Source: Somniosus microcephalus (lineage: Eukaryota). From it: a stretch of 64,000 nt of DNA. Of the stretch, positions 244-55,700 are shown one piece after another. The stretch covers positions 11,904,001 through 11,968,000 of the forward strand of contig CM126225.1 of assembly GCA_052327205.1 (NCBI GenBank). The letters run 5' to 3'. The notes under the pieces are model-generated. The model saw nothing but the letters and a program-made list of their open reading frames with translations, made no database searches and was not told the origin of the DNA. Position 1 is the first letter of the stretch. Each line of letters begins with the position of its first letter. A program made the translations under genes and the position numbers.

Positions 244-780
244 CCCAGGGTCTGATCCCACATCCCCCCAGGGACAGACCCCACCTGCCCCCAGGGTCTG
301 ACCCCACCAACCCCAGGGTTTGATCTCACCTCCCCCCAGGGTCTGATCCCACCTCCCCAGGGTCTAATCCCACCTCCCCAGGGCCTGATCCCACCTCCCC
401 CAGGGTCTGATCCCACCAACCCCAGGGTCTGATCCCACCTCCCCAGGGCCTGATCCCACCTCCCCTCAGGGTCTGATCCCACCAACCCCAGGGTCTGATC
501 CCACCTCCCCCAAGGTCTGACCCCACATCCCCCCAGGGTCTGACCCCACATTCCCACAGGGTCTGACCCCACATCCCTCCAGGGTCTGATCCCACCTCCC
601 CCCAGGGTCTGATCCCACCAATCCCAGGGTCTGATCCCACCTTCCCCCAGGGACAGACCCCACCTGCCCCCAGGGTCTGATCCCACCAACCCCAGGGACA
701 GACCCCACCTCCCCCAGGGTCTGATCCCACCTCCCCCAGGGTCTGATCCCACCTCCCCCAGGGTCTGTGTCACCTCCCCT
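244..780. repeat. ~22-23 bp C-rich minisatellite (CCCCCAGGGTCTGATCCCACCT)n, long allele
   Basis: Directly visible tandem repeat, embedded in a longer degenerate TCTGATTCCCC...CCTCAG repeat field. Confidence 0.95.
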
Positions 781-16770: not shown

Positions 16771-18881
16771 TCAGTTTTTTCTTCTTCTGATTTGTGCCGT
16801 TATGAAAAGGATCTGTTGTAATCGGGCCCTAGTTTCAGCGCGGATTATTTCCCAGGCGCAGTCACTGAATCTCTGAGAAAGAGAAATATTCAGGAAAATC
16901 CATTAGAAAATGAACAGGTTTGAATTGGGTAAACGAAAACGGTCAGTAATCTCAGTAAAATATCAATTTTCCCACCTTCTGTTTGAGAAACTTTCTCAGT
17001 TTCCTAAAGTATTTGTGAATTGAGGCGTTTCTCCTCGGCCTGGACTCTGAGCCTGGTTTCCTGACACATTCTTCCAGCTCCTCGAGCTGCCGATCCAGGA
17101 GAAGACGGAAGTTTTCCACCTTGTCCCGGGGCCATGTGACTGAGCCCAGGTTCATGCTGTCGATCTTGGTGAGGTGACGCAGTGTTTGATGGACAATCTG
17201 GATCCTGTCCTGGGTCTGTGCACAATACACACAAGGACGTTAGAGGGGACCTGTTCCTTTTTAGGTTTCGAGTAGTTATGGAAAAGGACAAGCATCAATC
17301 ACAAGTGAATATAGTCAACTGGTGTATTGGAATCTAAGATTTGCAGGTGAAACAGTAAATTTGCAATGGAAAGCCTTCAAAGAGGAAATCGTTTGGTGCA
17401 GTCTAGACACATCCGCACCAGGGGGAAAGGAAGGGCATGCAAAGCTATCTCTCCCCGGATCACTGAAGATGGAGATTTCAATGAAACAGCAAAAGGAGGC
17501 TTATGATAAACGTTAAGCTTATAATACAGTAGAGAACCAAGCTGAATGCAGAAGGTGCGAACTGAAAAAGGAAATGAGACGCAAAGAGAATGTATGAGAA
17601 TAGATTAGTGGGTGATATTAAAGGGCTCCCAAATGTGTTTTAGAAGCATTAAAAAATTGTGGTTTTCCAAAGGGAATTGGTTAAGTACCTGAAAAAAAAT
17701 GGCATGGCTCCGGGGAAAGGGCGGGGAGTGGGACTGGCTGAAGTGCTCTTGCAGAGAGCCGGCACGGGCTCGACGGGCCGAATGGCCTCCTTATGTGCTG
17801 TAACCATTCTATGATTCTATGAAATAGTAAAAGGATATTCAAAGGATGGGTGGGATCATCTAGGAACCAGAATGGAAGATTAGAGGGGCTTCAATGAATA
17901 GAGGGTGCGAGATGATTAGAGGGAGTTAGATAGTTAAAGGGAGTGAGATAATAGGTGAGATAGAGAGAGAGAGCTAGTTAGAGAGAGTGAGCTAGTTACA
18001 GAGAGTGAGCTAGTTAGAGAGAGTGAGCTAGTTAGAGAGTGAGCTAGTTACAGAGAGTGAGCTAGTTGGAGAGAGTGAGCTAGTTACAGAGAGTGAGCTA
18101 GTTAGAGAGAGTGAGCTAGTTAGAGAGTGAGCTAGTTACAGAGAGTGAGCTAGTTACAGAGAGTGAGCTAGTTGGAGAGAGTGAGCTAGTTACAGAGAGT
18201 GAGCTAGTTAGAGAGAGTGAGCTAGTTAGAGAGTGAGCTAGTTACAGAGAGTGAGCTAGTTAGAGAGAGTGAGCTAGTTAGAGAGTGAGCTAGTTAGAGA
18301 GAGTGAGCTAGTTAGAGAGAGTGACATGGAGTGAGTGAATGGCTCTCCTGGCACTTTCACCTCAATGGGCGGCTAACACTGGATTTAAATTTCCTGATTA
18401 AAATTCTGATCCGCGTGTTTATCTTACTCATGCTTTCTATAAAACTTTTGCTTGAATAAAGTGAAATAAAATAGAGTTCACTCACCTGTAATCCCTCTGA
18501 AAGTTTCACCAGATTCAAGGACTTGGTTTTCAGCGAGAGCCTCTCTCTTACACACTGTCGGGGAAAGGGGCCGCCCTGAGAGGAGAAGGCAATCAGTGTT
18601 ACAATCAGTTCCCTTGAAATACTGGAGAATCGCTGCCTATTAATTGCGTAAAATTACAAACACATCAAACATTTTCTCCTGATATAACTTTCCACAACAA
18701 GCACAGAGTATATGGTTCGGATCCGGCTCTGAATGCAGGTTAAACTCACCATTTCATTCAGTTTGCTCAGAGTCTCTGTGTTGAGAACTTGCTGTAACTG
18801 CAGCTTCTCACAGCCCAGACTCAGGGTCCCGCGCAACAAGACCAACACAATCCAACATCTCCAAACACTCGCCAAAGCCAT
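16771..18881 (-). CDS. IFN: Type I interferon, 4 exons, 187 aa (copy 2; P17R and Y93D)
   Basis: Exons 18881-18750, 18575-18486, 17215-16976, 16872-16771. Splice sites intact; substitutions at 18832 and 17161. Confidence 0.9.
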
Positions 18882-41227: not shown

Positions 41228-42149
41228 GCTGGACCGAGCCGGGGTAAAGCACCGATCTGAAAATTGGGAAACCGATCGGATCCGAGTTCAGCCCAGAAAA
41301 CGGTTCTTGTTCACCGAATGAAACTCTGGAAGTGGAAATGCAGCCGCTTGTGATCCGGGAGCGACCGCCTGTGTTGCCGAGTGATGTGGGTGTGCGGCTC
41401 GACACTGTGGGAGCTCTCACTGCCATGGTGCCGGCTTTAAAGTGGGGCATTACATTCGAAAAGTGAAATCGGGCCGCAGGAGTTTTGGCACAGCCGCTGG
41501 AGACCAATGATTTGTGCGGTTTCTTTCTGGGGTAAGGAATGGAAAAGCTGGAGATTCCTGAACCAGCGAGTGGGAAATCTCCGACAGAAGATCCCAACCA
41601 GCGCCCGGTTCCAGCTCCGTGTTGTGTGGACTCGGATCACCGGGGCACTGAGCTGGTGTAGAGGGAGGCTCTGTATTGGGGGAGTGTGGACATTGCAGAG
41701 ACCCCGCCTCACAGCCCAGGGGCACCGCTTCATGCCGACTGACTCCGCTCGGATTCACCTGTCGGAGACTCTGCTTCTTAAGGTTGTCGTTTCCGGGTTA
41801 TTTTCTGGAGTCATTTTCAGACATTGTTTTTAAAGAATATTTAATCCGTTTCGACTCTGAGTCCGAAGGGGATCCCGCTGCCTTTTCTTTCATCGTTTCT
41901 TTCTCGACCCTCTCCCGGGAAAGTGTCCGTGTCAGTTTCTCTGTGGAAATGAACCTTGTGTCAATTTCACCGAAAGCGAAAGTGTCTCAGGGAAAGTGAC
42001 GAGTTTTGTCATTTCCGAAAGTGCGGAGTGATTGTAAACAGAACGGGTCAGACTGAGAGGGCTGAGGGGGAGCTGGGAAAAGGTTTGGGATCTCCGGGAT
42101 AGCCCCGGTTACACAGGGAATGTCGCAAAATCACTCTCAGCTGCAACTG

Positions 42150-42885
42150 ATCACCTCTCATTTTTCTAAACTCCAGAGAGTATAGGCCCATTCTACACAA
42201 TCTCTCATCATAGGACAACCCTCTCATCCCAGGAATCAATCTAGTGAACCTTCATTGCACCGCCTCCAAGGCAAGTATATCCTTCCTTAGATAAGGAGAC
42301 CAAAACTGTGCCCAGTACTCCAGGTGTGGTCTCACCAAGGCCCTGTACAATTGTAGCAAGACTTCCTTACTCTTATACTCTGACCCCCTTACAATAAAGG
42401 CCAACATGCCATTTCCCTTCCTTATTGCTTGCTGTACCTGCATGCGAGCTTTCTGTGTTTCTTCCCCAAGGACACCCAAATCTCTCTGAACACCAACACT
42501 TGAAAGTTTCTCACCATTTAAAAAATATTCTGTTTTTCTATTCTTTATACCAAAGTGAATAACCTCACATTTCCGTACATTATACTCTGTCTGCCACCTT
42601 ACTTCCCACTCACTTAGTCTATCTATATCCCTTTGAAGATTCTTTGTGTTCTCCTCACAGCTTACTGTCCCACCTAGCTTTGTATCATCAGCAAACTTGG
42701 ATGCATTACACTTGGTCCCTTCATCTGGGTCATTAATATAGATTGTAAATAGCTGAGGCCCCAACACTGACACTTGCGGCACACCAATATTTACAGCCTG
42801 CCAACCTGAAAAAGATTTGTTTATCCCTACTCTCTGTTTTCTGTCCGTTAACCAATCCTCTATCCATGCTACTATATTACCCCAG
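42150..42885 (-). mobile_element. CR1 LINE RT fragment (unit 5 copy)
   Basis: ORF 42252-42914. Confidence 0.92.
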
Positions 42886-46491: not shown

Positions 46492-48620
46492 TCAGTTTTT
46501 TCTTCTTCTGATTTGTGCCGTTATGAAAAGGATCTGTTGTAATCGGGCCCTAGTTTCAGCGCGGATTATTTCCCAGGCGCAGTCACTGAATCTCTGAGAA
46601 AGAGAAATATTCAGGAAAATCCATTAGAAAATGAACAGGTTTGAATTGGGTAAACGAAAACGGTCAGTAATCTCAGTAAAATATCAATTTTCCCACCTTC
46701 TGTTTGAGAAACTTTCTCAGTTTCCTAAAGTATTTGTGAATTGAGGCGTTTCTCCTCGGCCTGGACTCTGAGCCTGGTTTCCTGACACATTCTTCCAGCT
46801 CCTCGAGCTGCCGATCCAGGAGAAGACGGAAGTTTTCCACCTTGTCCCGGGGCCATGTGACTGAGCCCAGGTTCATGCTGTAGATCTTGGTGAGGTGACG
46901 CAGTGTTTGATGGACAATCTGGATCCTGTCCTGGGTCTGTGCACAATACACACAAGGACGTTAGAGGGGACCTGTTCCTTTTTAGGTTTCGAGTAGTTAT
47001 GGAAAAGGACAAGCATCAATCACAAGTGAATATAGTCAACTGGTGTATTGGAATCTAAGATTTGCAGGTGAAACAGTAAATTTGCAATGGAAAGCCTTCA
47101 AAGAGGAAATCGTTTGGTGCAGTCTAGACACATCCGCACCAGGGGGAAAGGAAGGGCATGCAAAGCTATCTCTCCCCGGATCACTGAAGATGGAGATTTC
47201 AATGAAACAGCAAAAGGAGGCTTATGATAAACGTTAAGCTTATAATACAGTAGAGAACCAAGCTGAATGCAGAAGGTGCGAACTGAAAAAGGAAATGAGA
47301 CGCAAAGAGAATGTATGAGAATAGATTAGTGGGTGATATTAAAGGGCTCCCAAATGTGTTTTAGAAGCATTAAAAAATTGTGGCTTTCCAAAGGGAATTG
47401 GTTAAGTACCTGAAAAAAAATGGCATGGCTCCGGGGAAAGGGCGGGGAGTGGGACTGGCTGAAGTGCTCTTGCAGAGAGCCGGCACGGGCTCGACGGGCC
47501 GAATGGCCTCCTTATGTGCTGTAACCATTCTATGATTCTATGAAATAGTAAAAGGATATTCAAAGGATGGGTGGGATCATCTAGGAACCAGAATGGAAGA
47601 TTAGAGGGGCTTCAATGAATAGAGGGTGCGAGATGATTAGAGGGAGTTAGATAGTTAAAGGGAGTGAGATAATAGGTGAGATAGAGAGAGAGAGCTAGTT
47701 AGAGAGAGTGAGCTAGTTACAGAGAGTGAGCTAGTTAGAGAGAGTGAGCTAGTTAGAGAGTGAGCTAGTTACAGAGAGTGAGCTAGTTGGAGAGAGTGAG
47801 CTAGTTACAGAGAGTGAGCTAGTTAGAGAGAGTGAGCTAGTTAGAGAGTGAGCTAGTTACAGAGAGTGAGCTAGTTACAGAGAGTGAGCTAGTTGGAGAG
47901 AGTGAGCTAGTTACAGAGAGTGAGCTAGTTAGAGAGAGTGAGCTAGTTAGAGAGTGAGCTAGTTACAGAGAGTGAGCTAGTTAGAGAGAGTGAGCTAGTT
48001 AGAGAGTGAGCTAGTTAGAGAGAGTGAGCTAGTTAGAGAGAGTGAGCTAGTTAGAGAGAGTGACATGGAGTGAGTGAATGGCTCTTCTGGCACTTTCACC
48101 TCAATGGGCGGCTAACACTGGATTTAAATTTCCTGATTAAAATTCTGATCCGTGTGTTTATCTTACTCATGCTTTCTATAAAACTTTTGCTTGAATAAAG
48201 TGAAATAAAATAGAGTTCACTCACCTGTAATCCCTCTGAAAGTTTCACCAGATTCAAGGACTTGGTTTTCAGCGAGAGCCTCTCTCTTACACACTGTCGG
48301 GGAAAGGGGCTGCCCTGAGAGGAGAAGGCAATCAGTGTTACAATCAGTTCCCTTGAAATACTGGAGAATCGCTGCCTATTAATTGCGTAAAATTACAAAC
48401 ACATCAAACATTTTCTCCTGATATAACTTTCCACAACAAGCACAGAGTATATGGTTCGGATCCGGCTCTGAATGCAGGTTAAACTCACCATTTCATTCAG
48501 TTTGCTCAGAGTCTCTGTGTTGAGAACTTGCTGTAACTGCAGCTTCTCACAGCCCAGACTCAGGGTCCCGGGCAACAAGACCAACACAATCCAACATCTC
48601 CAAACACTCGCCAAAGCCAT
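46492..48620 (-). CDS. IFN: Type I interferon, 4 exons, 187 aa (copy 5; G46S)
   Basis: Exons 48620-48489, 48314-48225, 46936-46697, 46593-46492. C>T at 48311 gives GGC>AGC in exon 2. Confidence 0.92.
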
Positions 48621-50297: not shown

Positions 50298-50993
50298 CAA
50301 TTTCATATTATCCTTCTCCCCAGTTTTTCATTTCCTCTCCCCCTCAGTGTCTGAATTCCCCTCTTCACTCAGTTTTATGATTCCTCTTGCCCCTCCGTGT
50401 CTCATTCCCCATCCCCTCAGTATCTGATTCCAGTTCGTCCTCAAATTTGATTCCCCCTCGCCTTAGGGTCTGAATCCCTCTCTCCTTGAGGCTTTGATTC
50501 CTTTCTCTCCCTCGGAGTCTGATACCCGCTCGCCTCAGTATAAGATTACCCCTTTCTTCAGTCTCTCATTTCCTTTCTCCGCTTAGAGCCAGATTCTCCT
50601 CTCGCTCAGAATAGTTTCTTTCGCCACGCACTGCCTGATCCCAGCTCTCCCCTCAGCATCAGATTCTTCTTCTCCCCTCAGTATTGATTTCCCACTCTAG
50701 TCAGCCCCTGATTCCGCCTATCCCCTGTACCTGATTCTCTCTGTCCCATCAGGGATGAATTACCCCTCTAGGGTTCAGAGAACTTTTGCTGTTACACAGT
50801 CTCAGGGAATGATACCAAGAGTTACAGAAGAGAGTCACGCTAACAATTAATACCGTCAAATCAATACTGATCGACCAGTGACTATTAATTGCACAAGTAA
50901 TATACAACTTCAAACTATTTCTCCAGACATGAGTTATCACAACAAACAGACCATGCGCATTTCGAACCGACTCGGGATGCAGGTTAAACTCAC

Positions 50994-51125
50994 CATTTCA
51001 TTCAGTTTGCTGAGAGTCTCTGTGTTGAGAGCTTGCTGTAACTGCAGCCTCTCACAGCCCAGACTCAGGGTCCCGGGCAACAAGACCAAAACAATCCAAC
51101 ATCTCCAAACACTCGCCAAAGCCAT
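50994..51125 (-). pseudogene. Orphan IFN exon 1B (upstream of gene copy 5)
   Basis: Repeat-unit copy of 1477-1608. Confidence 0.8.
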
Positions 51126-51881
51126 GCTGGACCGAGCCGGGGTAAAGCACCGATCTGAAAATTGGGAAACCGATCGGATCCGAGTTCAGCCCAGAAAACG
51201 GTTCTTGTTCACCGAATGAAACTCTGGAAGTGGAAATGCAGCCGCTTGTGATCCGGGAGCGACCGCCTGTGTTGCCGAGTGATGTGGGTGTGCGGCTCGA
51301 CACTGTGGGAGCTCTCACTGCCATGGTGCCGGCTTTAAAGTGGGGCATTACATTCGAAAAGTGAAATCGGGCCGCAGGAGTTTTGGCACAGCCGCTGGAG
51401 ACCAATGATTTGTGCGGTTTCTTTCTGGGGTAAGGAATGGAAAAGCTGGAGATTCCTGAACCAGCGAGTGGGAAATCTCCGACAGAAGATCCCAACCAGC
51501 GCCCGGTTCCAGCTCCGTGTTGTGTGGACTCGGATCACCGGGGCACTGAGCTGGTGTAGAGGGAGGCTCTGTATTGGGGGAGTGTGGACATTGCAGAGAC
51601 CCCGCCTCACAGCCCAGGGGCACCGCTTCATGCCGACTGACTCCGCTCGGATTCACCTGTCGGAGACTCTGCTTCTTAAGGTTGTCGTTTCCGGGTTATT
51701 TTCTGGAGTCATTTTCAGACATTGTTTTTAAAGAATATTTAATCCGTTTCGACTCTGAGTCCGAAGGGGATCCCGCTGCCTTTTCTTTCATCGTTTCTTT
51801 CTCGACCCTCTCCCGGGAAAGTGTCCGTGTCAGTTTCTCTGTGGAAATGAACCTTGTGTCAATTTCACCGAAAGCGAAAGT

Positions 51882-52783
51882 AGAGAATTACAAATATTCA
51901 CAACCATCTGAGTGAAGAAATCCCTCCTCATCTCAGTCTTAAATGGCTTACCCCTTATCCTGAGACTATGTCCCCTAGTGACAGACACTCCAGCCAGGGG
52001 AAACATCCTCTCAGCCTCTACCCTTTCAAACCCCTTCAAAATCTTGTAAGTTTCAATGAGATCACCACTGATTTTTCTAAACTACAGAGAGTATAGGCCA
52101 ATTGTAAACAATCTCTCATCATAGGACAGATCTCTAATCCAAGGAATCAATCTAGTGAACCTTCGTTGCACTGCCCGAAGGTAAGTGTATCCTTGCTTAG
52201 AATTGGACACCAAAACTGTGCACAGTACTCCAGGTGTGGTCTCACCAAGGCACTGTACATTTGTAGCAAGACTTCCTTACTCTTGTACACCAACCCCCTT
52301 GCAATAAAGGCCAACATGCCAATTGCTTGCTGTACCTGCATGCGAGCTTTCTGTGTTTCTTCCCCAAGGACACCCAAATCTCTCTGAACACCAACACTTG
52401 AAAGTTTCTCACCATTTAAAAAATATTCTGTTTTTCTATTCTTTATACCAAAGTGAATAACCTCACATTTCCGTACATTATACTCTGTCTGCCACCTTAC
52501 TTCCCACTCACTTAGTCTATCTATATCCCTTTGAAGATTCTTTGTGTTCTCCTCACAGCTTACTGTCCCACCTAGCTTTGTATCATCAGCAAACTTGGAT
52601 GCATTACACTTGGTCCCTTCATCTGGGTCATTAATATAGATTGTAAATAGCTGAGGCCCCAACACTGACACTTGCGGCACACCAATATTTACAGCCTGCC
52701 AACCTGAAAAAGATTTGTTTATCCCTACTCTCTGTTTTCTGTCCGTTAACCAATCCTCTATCCATGCTACTATATTACCCCAG
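51882..52783 (-). mobile_element. Chimeric CR1 LINE fragment (unit 6), extended toward the ORF2 C-terminus by a different CR1 sequence
   Basis: 52322-52783 matches the other units. 51882-52321 is a diverged CR1 (GMLAFIARGLVYKSKEVLLQMYSALVRPHLEYC...; TRGHSLRIRGKPFKTEMRRDFFTQMVVNICNSL). Confidence 0.9.
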
Positions 52784-55700
52784 CAGTTAGACAACATAAA
52801 GGGAAATAGCAAGGAATCTTATCAGCACATTAATCTACAATATATAATAATCTTACATTCGTGCACAAATCCTTCTGCATAACTTGACTTCCCGATTTCA
52901 CCTTTTTGTCACACATTTGTTGTAGCGCTTCCGTGTTGTAGGACTTCATGAGGAGGGCAAATTGGTCAATTTATCCCCATTTTTGCCTCCTTTGCCTCCG
53001 CTACCATCCCACTACCAAAACTGTGGCAGTTTTAAGAAGCATTTTTTTCTCGAGTTTCGGCTCAAACTCATTTGCAAATCGTCCAAAGCAGAACCTGCCA
53101 TGAACCAGCGCAATCGGGCAACGTTTGAAAATGTATTTTTTTTAAAACTGCCTTAAAACTATTCATTGATATGTTGAAGAGCGGTAACTGGGCGCAGTTT
53201 GATTAATACAGCTGAAAATGGGGTTATCACGATAAATAAACATTTTGAATCACAGTGTCAATCCAGCACCTGTGAGGAACATGGTTTTAAATAATTGAAA
53301 ATTACTTTTATATAATATACAGAAACATTCGTTCGTTATATAGGGGTACAGTAGTCAGCTCCTTATTAAATTAAAACAAAATTATATTGAAAAGTTTTTA
53401 ATATGTGCTGATTAGTGTCCTTGTGCCAAAAAGAATCAGTTCAATTTTTGGAGCCTCCTTGAAAGTCAGCAAACGAGTGCAATAAGCAGAAAATCCCGAT
53501 GGTGATTAATTCGACCTGGGGACCAGGCCAGTTTTGTGGGCGGGGCCAGCTACCACCGCGATGTTTTTTTAAGTGGCGCAAAAAATAGCAGCAACTCGAT
53601 TTGCGCTGGGCGTAATTTCCACTTAAAATTCCGTGACTTTTTCTGCAGGTTTCGTCGATTTAAGGTGAATTGCACTGAAAAAACCAGCACAACCGAGCGG
53701 CAACTCCAGTTTACTGTTGCCAATTATAAATTCCTATGTCGATATTTATTATGGGTCTTGTTTACGTGAACTTGACAGTCTGGTTGCAGAAACTAGCCAC
53801 GTAGTTCAAATGAAAAGAGGTAGGGATTGTGATGCGAGTAAGTGGGTGGGATAAAGAGGAATGAATAGTGGGAAGATGAAATAGTAGGGAATGCAAAGGG
53901 GGCAAATGTGGGGATAAACTGACCCATGTGCCCTCCCCGTGAAAGATCATGGGAAGATGGAATCATATTTTAGGCCACAAACCTTCCTTCCTGAGAGTGT
54001 ACTTGAGTTTGAATAAGTGGTAAAGATCCTTAATCTGTGACATGCCTCAGTTAGAAAGAGAGACTTGCATTTATATATCGCCTTTCACAACCACCGGACA
54101 TCCCGAAGTGTTTACAGCCAATGAAGTACTTTTAAAGTGTAGCCACTGGTGTACTGTAGGAAACTCGGCACACAAATTGCGCAGAGCAAGCTCCCACAAA
54201 CAGCAATGTGATAATGACCAGATAATCCGCTTTTGAGTGATGTTGATTGAGGGATAATTATTGGTCAGGACACCGGGGATAACTCCCGTGCGCTTCTTCG
54301 AAATAGCACCATGGGATCTTTTACATCCACCTGAGAAAGCAAATAGGCCCTTGGTTTAACATTTCATCAGAAAGACTGCACCTCTGACAGTGCAGCACTC
54401 CTTCATTCAGCCTGGATGTTGTGCTCGAGTCATTGGAGTGGGACTTGAACCACACAATCTCCTGACTCACAGGCAAGAGTGTTTACCACTGAGACACAGT
54501 TACTGAAGAAGGTGAAAATGGAAACTCAGGGGAATGTAGAATAAAACTATGGAGATAAATATACAGAAGCAAGGATGAAGGGAGTAACAAGGGAGCAAAG
54601 GGGAAGGGAGGATAAAAAAAAGAAAGTGCGACTGAATGTAGGAAGTAGAAAATTCACCAGGTCCAGTTCATATGCAGTGCAAGGAAGTGAGAAATAGGGT
54701 AAATGAGAGAAAGAAGAAACCATCACATTCCACTCAACTTTGAAAACAAGTATCATGGCAAAGGATTGAAGGGTGGGAAAAATTATAACCCTTTTAGTCT
54801 TACCTCAGCTGTGGGTAAACATATGGACTCCATAGTATGGGATGAAATTAGTGAACAGTTGGAAAAATATGGGCTCATTAGGGGCAGTCACCATGAATCT
54901 GTAAAGAACACATTGTGCTTGAATAATTCTACTGAATTTTTCAGGAAGCTCACATACATAGCTAAAGGAATGCAGTCAGTGTTAAGTATACAGCTTTTCA
55001 GAAGGTGCAGGATAAAATGCCATATAAGAGATTTTCAGTCCCACTCTCCACTCATTCCGCTCCCCTAGAATATCGAGCCAATTGGGTTCAAAATGAATTC
55101 ACAGTTTTGACAGGCGAGGAAATATCAGACAGTGGAGAATCGAGCGGTGAGGGTGTACCAGTCACAGGCAGCAGATAGAGGAATCCAGAGCATTTACAGT
55201 GAGTATGGAAAACTGACAGATGTAAATGAGAAATAAATATTACTCCAATAAAAATGTAATATTGCAAACAATTTATTTACACCAACATGTTCTCAATCAG
55301 TACAAAAAGTGTAGACAAACAATGTCTATTCCCCAAATCTTAGTAAATATCAATAAATTAACAGTGCTTTCTGAACTTATTTACACATTGCATAAAACTG
55401 TAACTTTTCATTACATGAAGACGTCACAATTATAAATATCAATACATTAGGAATACACGGGACGAGTTGGAGTGTTGGCCGCTGGGAGAGCAGAAATGTA
55501 AAGGTCAGTGCAGGTCAGGGATCAGGTCATGGGTCATTGTTCCGCAACCCTACCATTGAGAGCCAATCAGTGCCATGAAAGCTAGTGACAGAGCCGAGTA
55601 TTGGCCGGGCATTCCCAGTGCAGGGAGTTGTCACTGGAAGTTCAGCAACTGGAATAAGGAGCCTCATAAAGTTAATTAAATGGAAATAAAAGAGTTAATT

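What the first reader, a model, noticed from the sequence alone, without database searches (positions are those of the whole stretch)
51882..52321. Unit 6 only: an exactly length-preserving 440-bp replacement by a foreign CR1 sequence that deletes half of the IRF cluster
Seen: unit 6 matches the consensus up to GAAAGCGAAAGT (51881) and again from attgcttgc (52322). The offset to unit 1 is 49517 on both sides, so 440 bp are swapped for 440 bp. The new sequence is a diverged CR1 that overlaps the resident CR1 in homology (shifted ~13 bp, with a 12-bp loss at the right junction) and continues toward the ORF2 C-terminus. It removes GGGAAAGTGA and TTTCCGAAAGT. Inference: ectopic gene conversion or templated repair from another CR1, altering one promoter. 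The exact length conservation equally suggests a polishing or assembly artefact.
Basis: partly seen in the sequence, partly recalled or inferred. Interest (0 to 1): 0.7.

Follow-up and report, generated by a model that had tools for sequence, protein, structure and literature searches.

The report
Probable assembly overwrite in shark interferon array
In one of seven near-identical shark interferon gene repeats, 440 bases are replaced by exactly 440 bases of a different copy of a common retrotransposon, which looks more like a data-processing error than a real mutation, though raw reads are needed to decide.

Summary
The swap is in the sequence as given. The window is a tandem array of 9.9-kb shark type I interferon units. 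In unit 6, 51882-52321 is a decayed CR1 LINE fragment: 262 bp at 88.6% identity to the resident CR1, plus 178 bp running further into ORF2. All seven units have exactly 440 bp between the same anchors.

The tandem IRF site and the proximal promoter survive. The cluster lies upstream of an extra first exon of the neighbouring gene. Other CR1 copies in public runs carry the same 12-bp deletion, so it is probably donor-encoded.

The right switch lies within about 24 bp of that deletion and net length change is zero. Both follow if a clipped repeat alignment was written over the coordinates in place; one-sided ectopic repair needs both by chance. Contigs matching the flank without a difference run past the left junction with other letters, but such contigs drop rare variants, so this does not decide it. 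I found no tool documented to do this. Artefact about 0.7, real templated repair about 0.3.

The parts
51882..52321 (-). 440-bp foreign CR1 ORF2 fragment replacing 440 bp of the array unit; decayed (one stop codon, one 1-bp frameshift)
51882..52059 (-). 178-bp part beyond the end of the resident CR1; stops about 37 codons before the ORF2 stop, so no CR1 3' end
52060..52321 (-). 262-bp part homologous to the resident CR1 (88.6%; 29 substitutions, one 1-bp deletion), off register by +13 then +12
52322..52345 (.). Block in which the right-hand switch must lie, directly after the 12-bp deletion; the first resident-derived change (52346) is kept in unit 6
   Evidence: records 5 and 13
52322..52780 (-). 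Retained part of the resident CR1 fragment (RVT_1 domain), identical to unit 5; right end approximate
51817..51881 (+). Retained part of the IRF-like cluster: 4 of 6 GAAA cores, including the only tandem GAAANNGAAA site (51870)
41984..42423 (+). Reference: the intact 440 bp in unit 5 (165 bp non-CR1 holding the two lost cores, then resident CR1)
51354..51480 (.). Proximal IRF-like and NF-kB-like motifs of promoter 1A, unchanged in unit 6 (the NF-kB-like motif read by eye, motif labels recalled)
50994..51125 (-). Extra interferon exon 1 (1A) with ATG and GT donor; no exon 2 of its own
46492..48620 (-). Four-exon type I interferon gene downstream of exon 1A (exon 1B 48620-48489, exon 2 48314-48225, exon 3 about 46936-46697, exon 4 46593-46492)

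Best explanation
A coordinate-preserving overwrite made during assembly, read correction, polishing, gap filling or later data handling. Sequence from another CR1 locus was anchored on the resident CR1 to the right of 52322. Its alignment ended at the donor's own 12-bp deletion, and 440 bases of its unaligned tail were written base for base over the unit. Shown: equal length, off-register homology, switch within about 24 bp of the deletion, other CR1 copies with that deletion. Inferred: that the donor itself carried the deletion, and that software did the writing. The tool is not identified.
For: Exactly 440 for 440 in 7 of 7 units. The right switch is confined to 52322-52345 of about 460 bp of available homology. 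Gap-free contigs bridge the deletion in 2 of 4 runs (X21 record 5, 74 nt, 4 differences, depth 119; X22 record 13, 75 of 78 nt laid, 4 differences, depth 72). In X21 and X23 (one sample) a 325-nt contig matches 51575-51881 with no difference and has 18 further letters past 51881 that do not fit unit 6; no listed piece bridges the left junction. No TSD, no CR1 3' end, at most 2 bp possible microhomology on the left. Unit 6 differs from unit 5 by only 3 substitutions elsewhere. Gap closers are reported to insert inaccurate sequence and to be misled by repeats (10.1101/2021.02.26.432990, passages). One-boundary filling with gap-length bookkeeping is described for LR_Gapcloser (PMC6324547, passages).
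Against: No tool that does exactly this was found: LR_Gapcloser pads with N rather than trimming, and the search on soft-clip polishing errors returned 0 papers. The array otherwise looks accurate (3-31 substitutions between units; three unit-private 1-bp indels), the window has no N, and there is no second large patch. The contig evidence cannot exclude a rare allele. With roughly 1e5 CR1 copies the shared 12-bp deletion could be an independent event.
Confidence: 0.7

Rival explanations
1. Real, very recent one-sided ectopic repair. A break in the unit was resected; the right end invaded another CR1 copy, copied about 440 bp through the donor's deletions and past the end of the resident's homology, and was end-joined to the left flank. 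Equal length is a coincidence.
For: One homologous and one non-homologous junction, which is the expected anatomy. The donor looks like a real decayed genomic copy, with 20 derived changes in 120 conserved columns. A 90-nt contig in X22 is within 3 differences of the foreign sequence at 52040-52129. Patches from distant loci at breaks are documented, 73-414 bp in cell lines (PMC5110952, passages). One-sided invasion is recalled; only its citation was seen (PMC4888836 reference list).
Against: Needs zero net length change (roughly 1 in 300 to 1 in 1000 if the two left breakpoints are independent; my estimate) and a switch within about 24 of about 460 bp (about 5%; my estimate). Junction not seen in 4 of 4 runs laid, which is weak evidence.
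Confidence: 0.22
2. Gene conversion from a paralogous interferon locus in which the IRF cluster already abuts a longer CR1 fragment, so that both junctions lie in homology.
For: Paralogous promoter contigs exist in the runs (records 2 and 4). Units show mosaic sharing of SNPs, as expected from exchange between units.
Against: Both switches would have to fall within a few bases of the indels, and equal length is still a coincidence. The 563-nt paralogous contig is laid only over 51575-51659, and no piece bridging 51881/51882 is listed.
Confidence: 0.04
3. Endonuclease-independent reverse transcription at a break: the left end primed cDNA synthesis on a CR1-containing RNA, and the cDNA annealed to the resident CR1.
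For: Orientation fits: priming from 51881 would copy the CR1 antisense strand towards the resident copy. Such events are described for L1 (PMC11702581 and PMC5110952, passages).
Against: The template would be a decayed internal fragment with a stop and a frameshift. Equal length is again unexplained.
Confidence: 0.04

Closest known systems
Repeat-induced misfill by gap-closing or polishing software (e.g. LR_Gapcloser one-boundary fill; benchmark in the DENTIST paper)
   Same: Sequence from another repeat locus anchored on one side only; length bookkeeping against the reference interval (passages).
   Different: The described procedure leaves N padding and needs a pre-existing gap; here there is no N and the fill is exact. 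No tool matched fully.
Class 2 templated sequence insertion (TSI/TSIP; PMC5110952)
   Same: Patch of a few hundred bases from a distant locus, no TSD, no poly(A), little or no microhomology at the left junction.
   Different: Here one junction lies in long homology with a resident copy of the same element, and the loss at the target is 440 bp and equals the patch length, not a microdeletion.
One-sided invasion / LINE-LINE ectopic gene conversion (recalled; only the citation of Belmaaza and Chartrand 1994 was seen)
   Same: One homologous junction, one end-joined junction, copying beyond the end of homology.
   Different: No known constraint on net length; the switch next to an indel is not expected.
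CR1-type LINE ORF2 (RVT_1, PF00078)
   Same: Resident scores 31.6 bits against a cut-off of 29.6. The foreign translation hits 41 proteins among 126 candidates, best 74% identical, several with RT and endonuclease domains.
   Different: Both copies are dead fragments; the clade name CR1 is from recall, no repeat library was on hand.
Intron-containing type I interferons of cartilaginous fish
   Same: Exon 3 matches PF00143 and shark interferons, best 91% (Heptranchias perlo) and 90% (Pristiophorus japonicus).
   Different: Here in a near-identical 9.9-kb tandem array with a duplicated promoter and first exon in each unit.

Membership tests
Coordinate-overwrite artefact | Net length change exactly zero | tested here: met
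   440 bp in 7 of 7 units
Coordinate-overwrite artefact | One boundary coincides with a point where an alignment would be clipped | tested here: met
   Switch within 52322-52345, adjacent to the 12-bp deletion
Coordinate-overwrite artefact | Junction absent from raw reads of the assembled individual | not testable with these tools
   Only simplified contigs of runs of unknown relation to the assembly were served
Coordinate-overwrite artefact | Similar patches elsewhere in the same assembly | not testable with these tools
   No whole genome held; no second patch in this window; no earlier notes
One-sided ectopic recombination | One junction in homology, the other non-homologous | tested here: met
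One-sided ectopic recombination | Near-identical donor elsewhere in the genome | tested here: inconclusive
   Best runs hold 0.56-0.59 of 91 words, 0.495 expected from the flanks alone; no long perfect piece listed, but none is listed for the resident CR1 either
One-sided ectopic recombination | Junction present in molecules | tested here: inconclusive
   Left junction not listed in 4 of 4 runs; contigs drop rare variants
Canonical TPRT insertion / class 1 TSIP | Element 3' end or tail present | tested here: not met
   Fragment ends about 37 codons before the ORF2 stop
Canonical TPRT insertion / class 1 TSIP | Target-site duplication | tested here: not met
   440 bp of target lost; none visible at the junctions
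Class 2 TSIP | No TSD or poly(A); end-joining features at both junctions with microdeletion | tested here: not met
   No TSD, but the right junction lies in long homology and the loss is 440 bp
Functional IRF enhancer | Non-random cluster of GAAA cores | tested here: met
   6 cores in about 105 bp; 0 of 300 shuffles reach 6; pattern chosen after seeing the sequence
Functional IRF enhancer | IRF binding and effect on transcription | not testable with these tools
   No assay or RNA data examined

The most novel reading that the evidence does not exclude
The patch is a real germline event and its zero net length is not chance: a single-strand gap beside an intact opposite strand was filled from an ectopic CR1 and rejoined at a position set by the gap length, a length-conserving form of templated repair that can rewrite regulatory DNA in one array unit.
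Probability: 0.03. Interest if true: 0.7.

Novelty: not a real feature. Interest (0 to 1): 0.15.

Why it matters
If it is an artefact, it shows that near-identical gene arrays in otherwise accurate assemblies can hold in-place overwrites by repeat sequence; these change no length and would be missed by length-based checks. If it is real, it is a fresh example of one-sided repair from a LINE trimming a candidate interferon enhancer in one copy. That is a known kind of event with a probably small effect, since the tandem IRF site, the proximal promoter and six other copies in this window are intact. Only a systematic excess of length-conserving events would be new biology.

Tried and rejected
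Whole-genome donor search: no genome held.

Donor inside the window: only the six resident copies match; nothing of note for the 178-bp part.

Column-wise mixing of donor and resident: 7 of 29 substituted letters equal the same-coordinate resident base, which is chance level.

Transversion excess as a sign of read error: 19 transversions and 10 transitions. This differs from inter-unit SNPs (15/25, p=0.029) but not from the paralogous promoters (38/42, p=0.13), nor at protein level from the resident's own decay (14/4 against 9/6, p=0.45). Not used as evidence.

Absence of donor words and long donor pieces in public runs: not used, because the resident CR1 also has no long perfect piece listed and its letter at 52362 is absent from the X23 contigs laid.

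Shark CR1 DNA for polarising changes: the metagenome scan gave 4 distant loci that look like bird CR1 by my recall. No match in genome contigs, viral contigs, phages or plasmids.

Earlier scan notes: 5 look-ups, all empty. Literature searches with 0 papers.

Full report
Context. The window is a tandem array of six full units of 9880-9943 bp and a partial seventh, with no N. Each full unit holds a four-exon gene on the minus strand. Exon 3 matches the interferon alpha/beta domain. The search returned 37 proteins among 106 candidates, best 91% identical in Heptranchias perlo and 90% in Pristiophorus japonicus, so the host is a shark, probably a squalomorph (inference). Each unit also has a second promoter and exon 1 (1A) 2.5 kb upstream of the ordinary exon 1B, with ATG and GT donor but no exon 2 of its own. 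Units differ by 3-31 substitutions outside the patch; units 5 and 6 differ by 3.

Observation. Confirmed. All 7 units have 440 bp between the two anchors. In unit 6 the stretch is 24.5% identical to unit 5 without gaps. Its right 262 bp align to the resident CR1 at 88.6%, off register by 13, by 12 after a 1-bp deletion, and by 0 after the 12-bp loss. Its left 178 bp continue ORF2: the translation hit 41 proteins among 126 candidates. In 23 of these that I examined, 17 show the terminal motif, and in 14 of the 17 the protein ends 41 residues after its start, so the fragment stops about 37 codons short of the stop. It has a stop codon and a frameshift. Against 24 of the 41 proteins it has 20 derived changes in 120 conserved columns; the resident has 20 in 189. 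It is therefore a decayed genomic copy without a 3' end or TSD, not a new insertion. The name CR1 is from recall.

Regulatory claim. The cluster has six GAAA cores in about 105 bp; 0 of 300 dinucleotide shuffles of a unit reached six (pattern chosen after the fact). Unit 6 keeps four, including the only tandem GAAANNGAAA site, and loses two. The cluster lies about 750 bp upstream of the ATG of exon 1A (51125). The proximal motifs are unchanged, since unit 6 equals unit 5 from 50487 to 51881. On the minus strand exon 1A leads into the gene at 48620-46492. No function was tested.

Junctions. Unit 6 equals unit 5 from 52322 to 53851 and keeps the resident's derived change at 52346, so the right switch lies within about 24 bp of the 12-bp deletion, out of about 460 bp of resident CR1 to the right. 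On the left, the family continues with Pro in 17 of 17 proteins. This fits the base at 51880 but not 51879, so microhomology is at most 2 bp and may be none.

Public runs. The search with 51400-52360 listed 24 runs; three hold 0.56-0.59 of 91 words, one 0.24, and twenty 0.09-0.14. The flanks alone predict 0.495. I laid 4 of the 24 at 94% likeness on 51500-52700. In X21 and X23 (one sample) a 325-nt contig matches 51575-51881 without a difference and has 18 more letters beyond 51881 that do not fit unit 6. In X22 the contig ends at 51850. X24 covers the flank only to 51717. No listed piece bridges the left junction; the tables are cut to the longest or best-supported rows. Gap-free pieces bridge the 12-bp deletion in X21 and X22, each with 4 differences, so other CR1 copies have this deletion. 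A 90-nt piece in X22 is within 3 differences of the foreign sequence. Against over-reading: the resident CR1 has no long perfect piece listed either, and summed CR1 depth reaches 2.9 million where lone contigs show about 30, so copies number roughly 1e5 (rough; the tool warns that depth is not copy number). These contigs therefore cannot show that the donor or a rare junction is absent, and the shared deletion could be independent. I do not know whether any run is the assembled individual.

Mechanism. Two features need explaining: zero net length, and a switch beside the deletion. An in-place overwrite gives both from one cause. A donor anchored in register on the right is clipped at its own deletion, and its tail is written over the same number of bases. 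One-sided ectopic repair explains the anatomy but needs the length by chance (about 1 in 300 to 1 in 1000) and the switch position by chance (about 5%), or a 12-bp deletion made at the junction; these are my estimates, not tool results. Against the artefact: I found no tool documented to do this. The LR_Gapcloser methods describe one-boundary filling with N padding to the gap length (PMC6324547, passages). The DENTIST paper reports inaccurate fills and repeat-induced misplacement (10.1101/2021.02.26.432990, passages). A search on soft-clip polishing errors found 0 papers. The rest of the array looks accurate and has no second patch. I put the artefact at 0.70, one-sided repair at 0.22, and paralogue conversion and RT-mediated patching at 0.04 each.

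Known comparisons. Class 2 templated insertions are patches from distant loci with end-joining features, 73-414 bp in cell lines (PMC5110952, passages); here one junction lies in long homology and the loss equals the gain. Endonuclease-independent RT at breaks is described for L1 (PMC11702581, passages). For one-sided invasion I saw only the citation in a reference list (PMC4888836); the rest is recalled. Lineage-specific expansion and birth-death evolution of cartilaginous-fish type I interferons are reported (PMC6640115, passages). Searches gave search listings, on LINE or Alu replacement precedents, found 0 papers. No supplements were read.

Verdict. The feature is in the sequence as given but is probably not in the animal. 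If real, it is a new instance of a known repair outcome with a likely small regulatory effect. Raw-read k-mer counts across the left junction would settle it.

Noticed in passing
window 1608-1477, 11506, 21431, 31329, 41227, 51125, 61024 (minus strand): Every unit has a second interferon promoter and exon 1 (1A), about 84.5% identical to the 1B region and 2.5 kb upstream of it, with intact ATG and GT donor in the same phase. It could be an alternative first exon with its own IRF-rich upstream cluster.
   Followed up: partly
window 1-64000: At least six complete, near-identical type I interferon genes in 9.9-kb tandem units, each with three introns; a very recent amplification.
   Followed up: partly
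window 48311, 8660, and exon 1B starting at 18881: Unit-private amino-acid changes: Gly to Ser in exon 2 of unit 5, Arg to Ser in exon 2 of unit 1, Pro to Arg in the signal peptide of unit 2.
   Followed up: no
window 645-689 and the matching place in unit 3; unit 2 near 18270: Units 1 and 3 share an extra 45 bp in the 23-bp minisatellite and many SNPs over about 1.1 kb, while unit 2 lacks 18 bp of the purine-rich repeat; mosaic pattern suggests conversion or unequal exchange.
   Followed up: no
window 51500-51881, runs X21-X23: The promoter contig has about 3-4.5 times the depth of a paralogous contig, whereas the window holds 7 copies; could be copy-number variation or an over-expanded assembly. 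Depth is a poor measure here.
   Followed up: no
window 51503-51659, records 2, 4, 10, 18, 20: Contigs with 3-4 differences show further paralogous promoters in the same runs, one of them deeper than this unit's own.
   Followed up: no
L001-L004: Four vertebrate-type CR1 fragments lie in contigs of one metagenome; probably host DNA, distant from the shark element.
   Followed up: no
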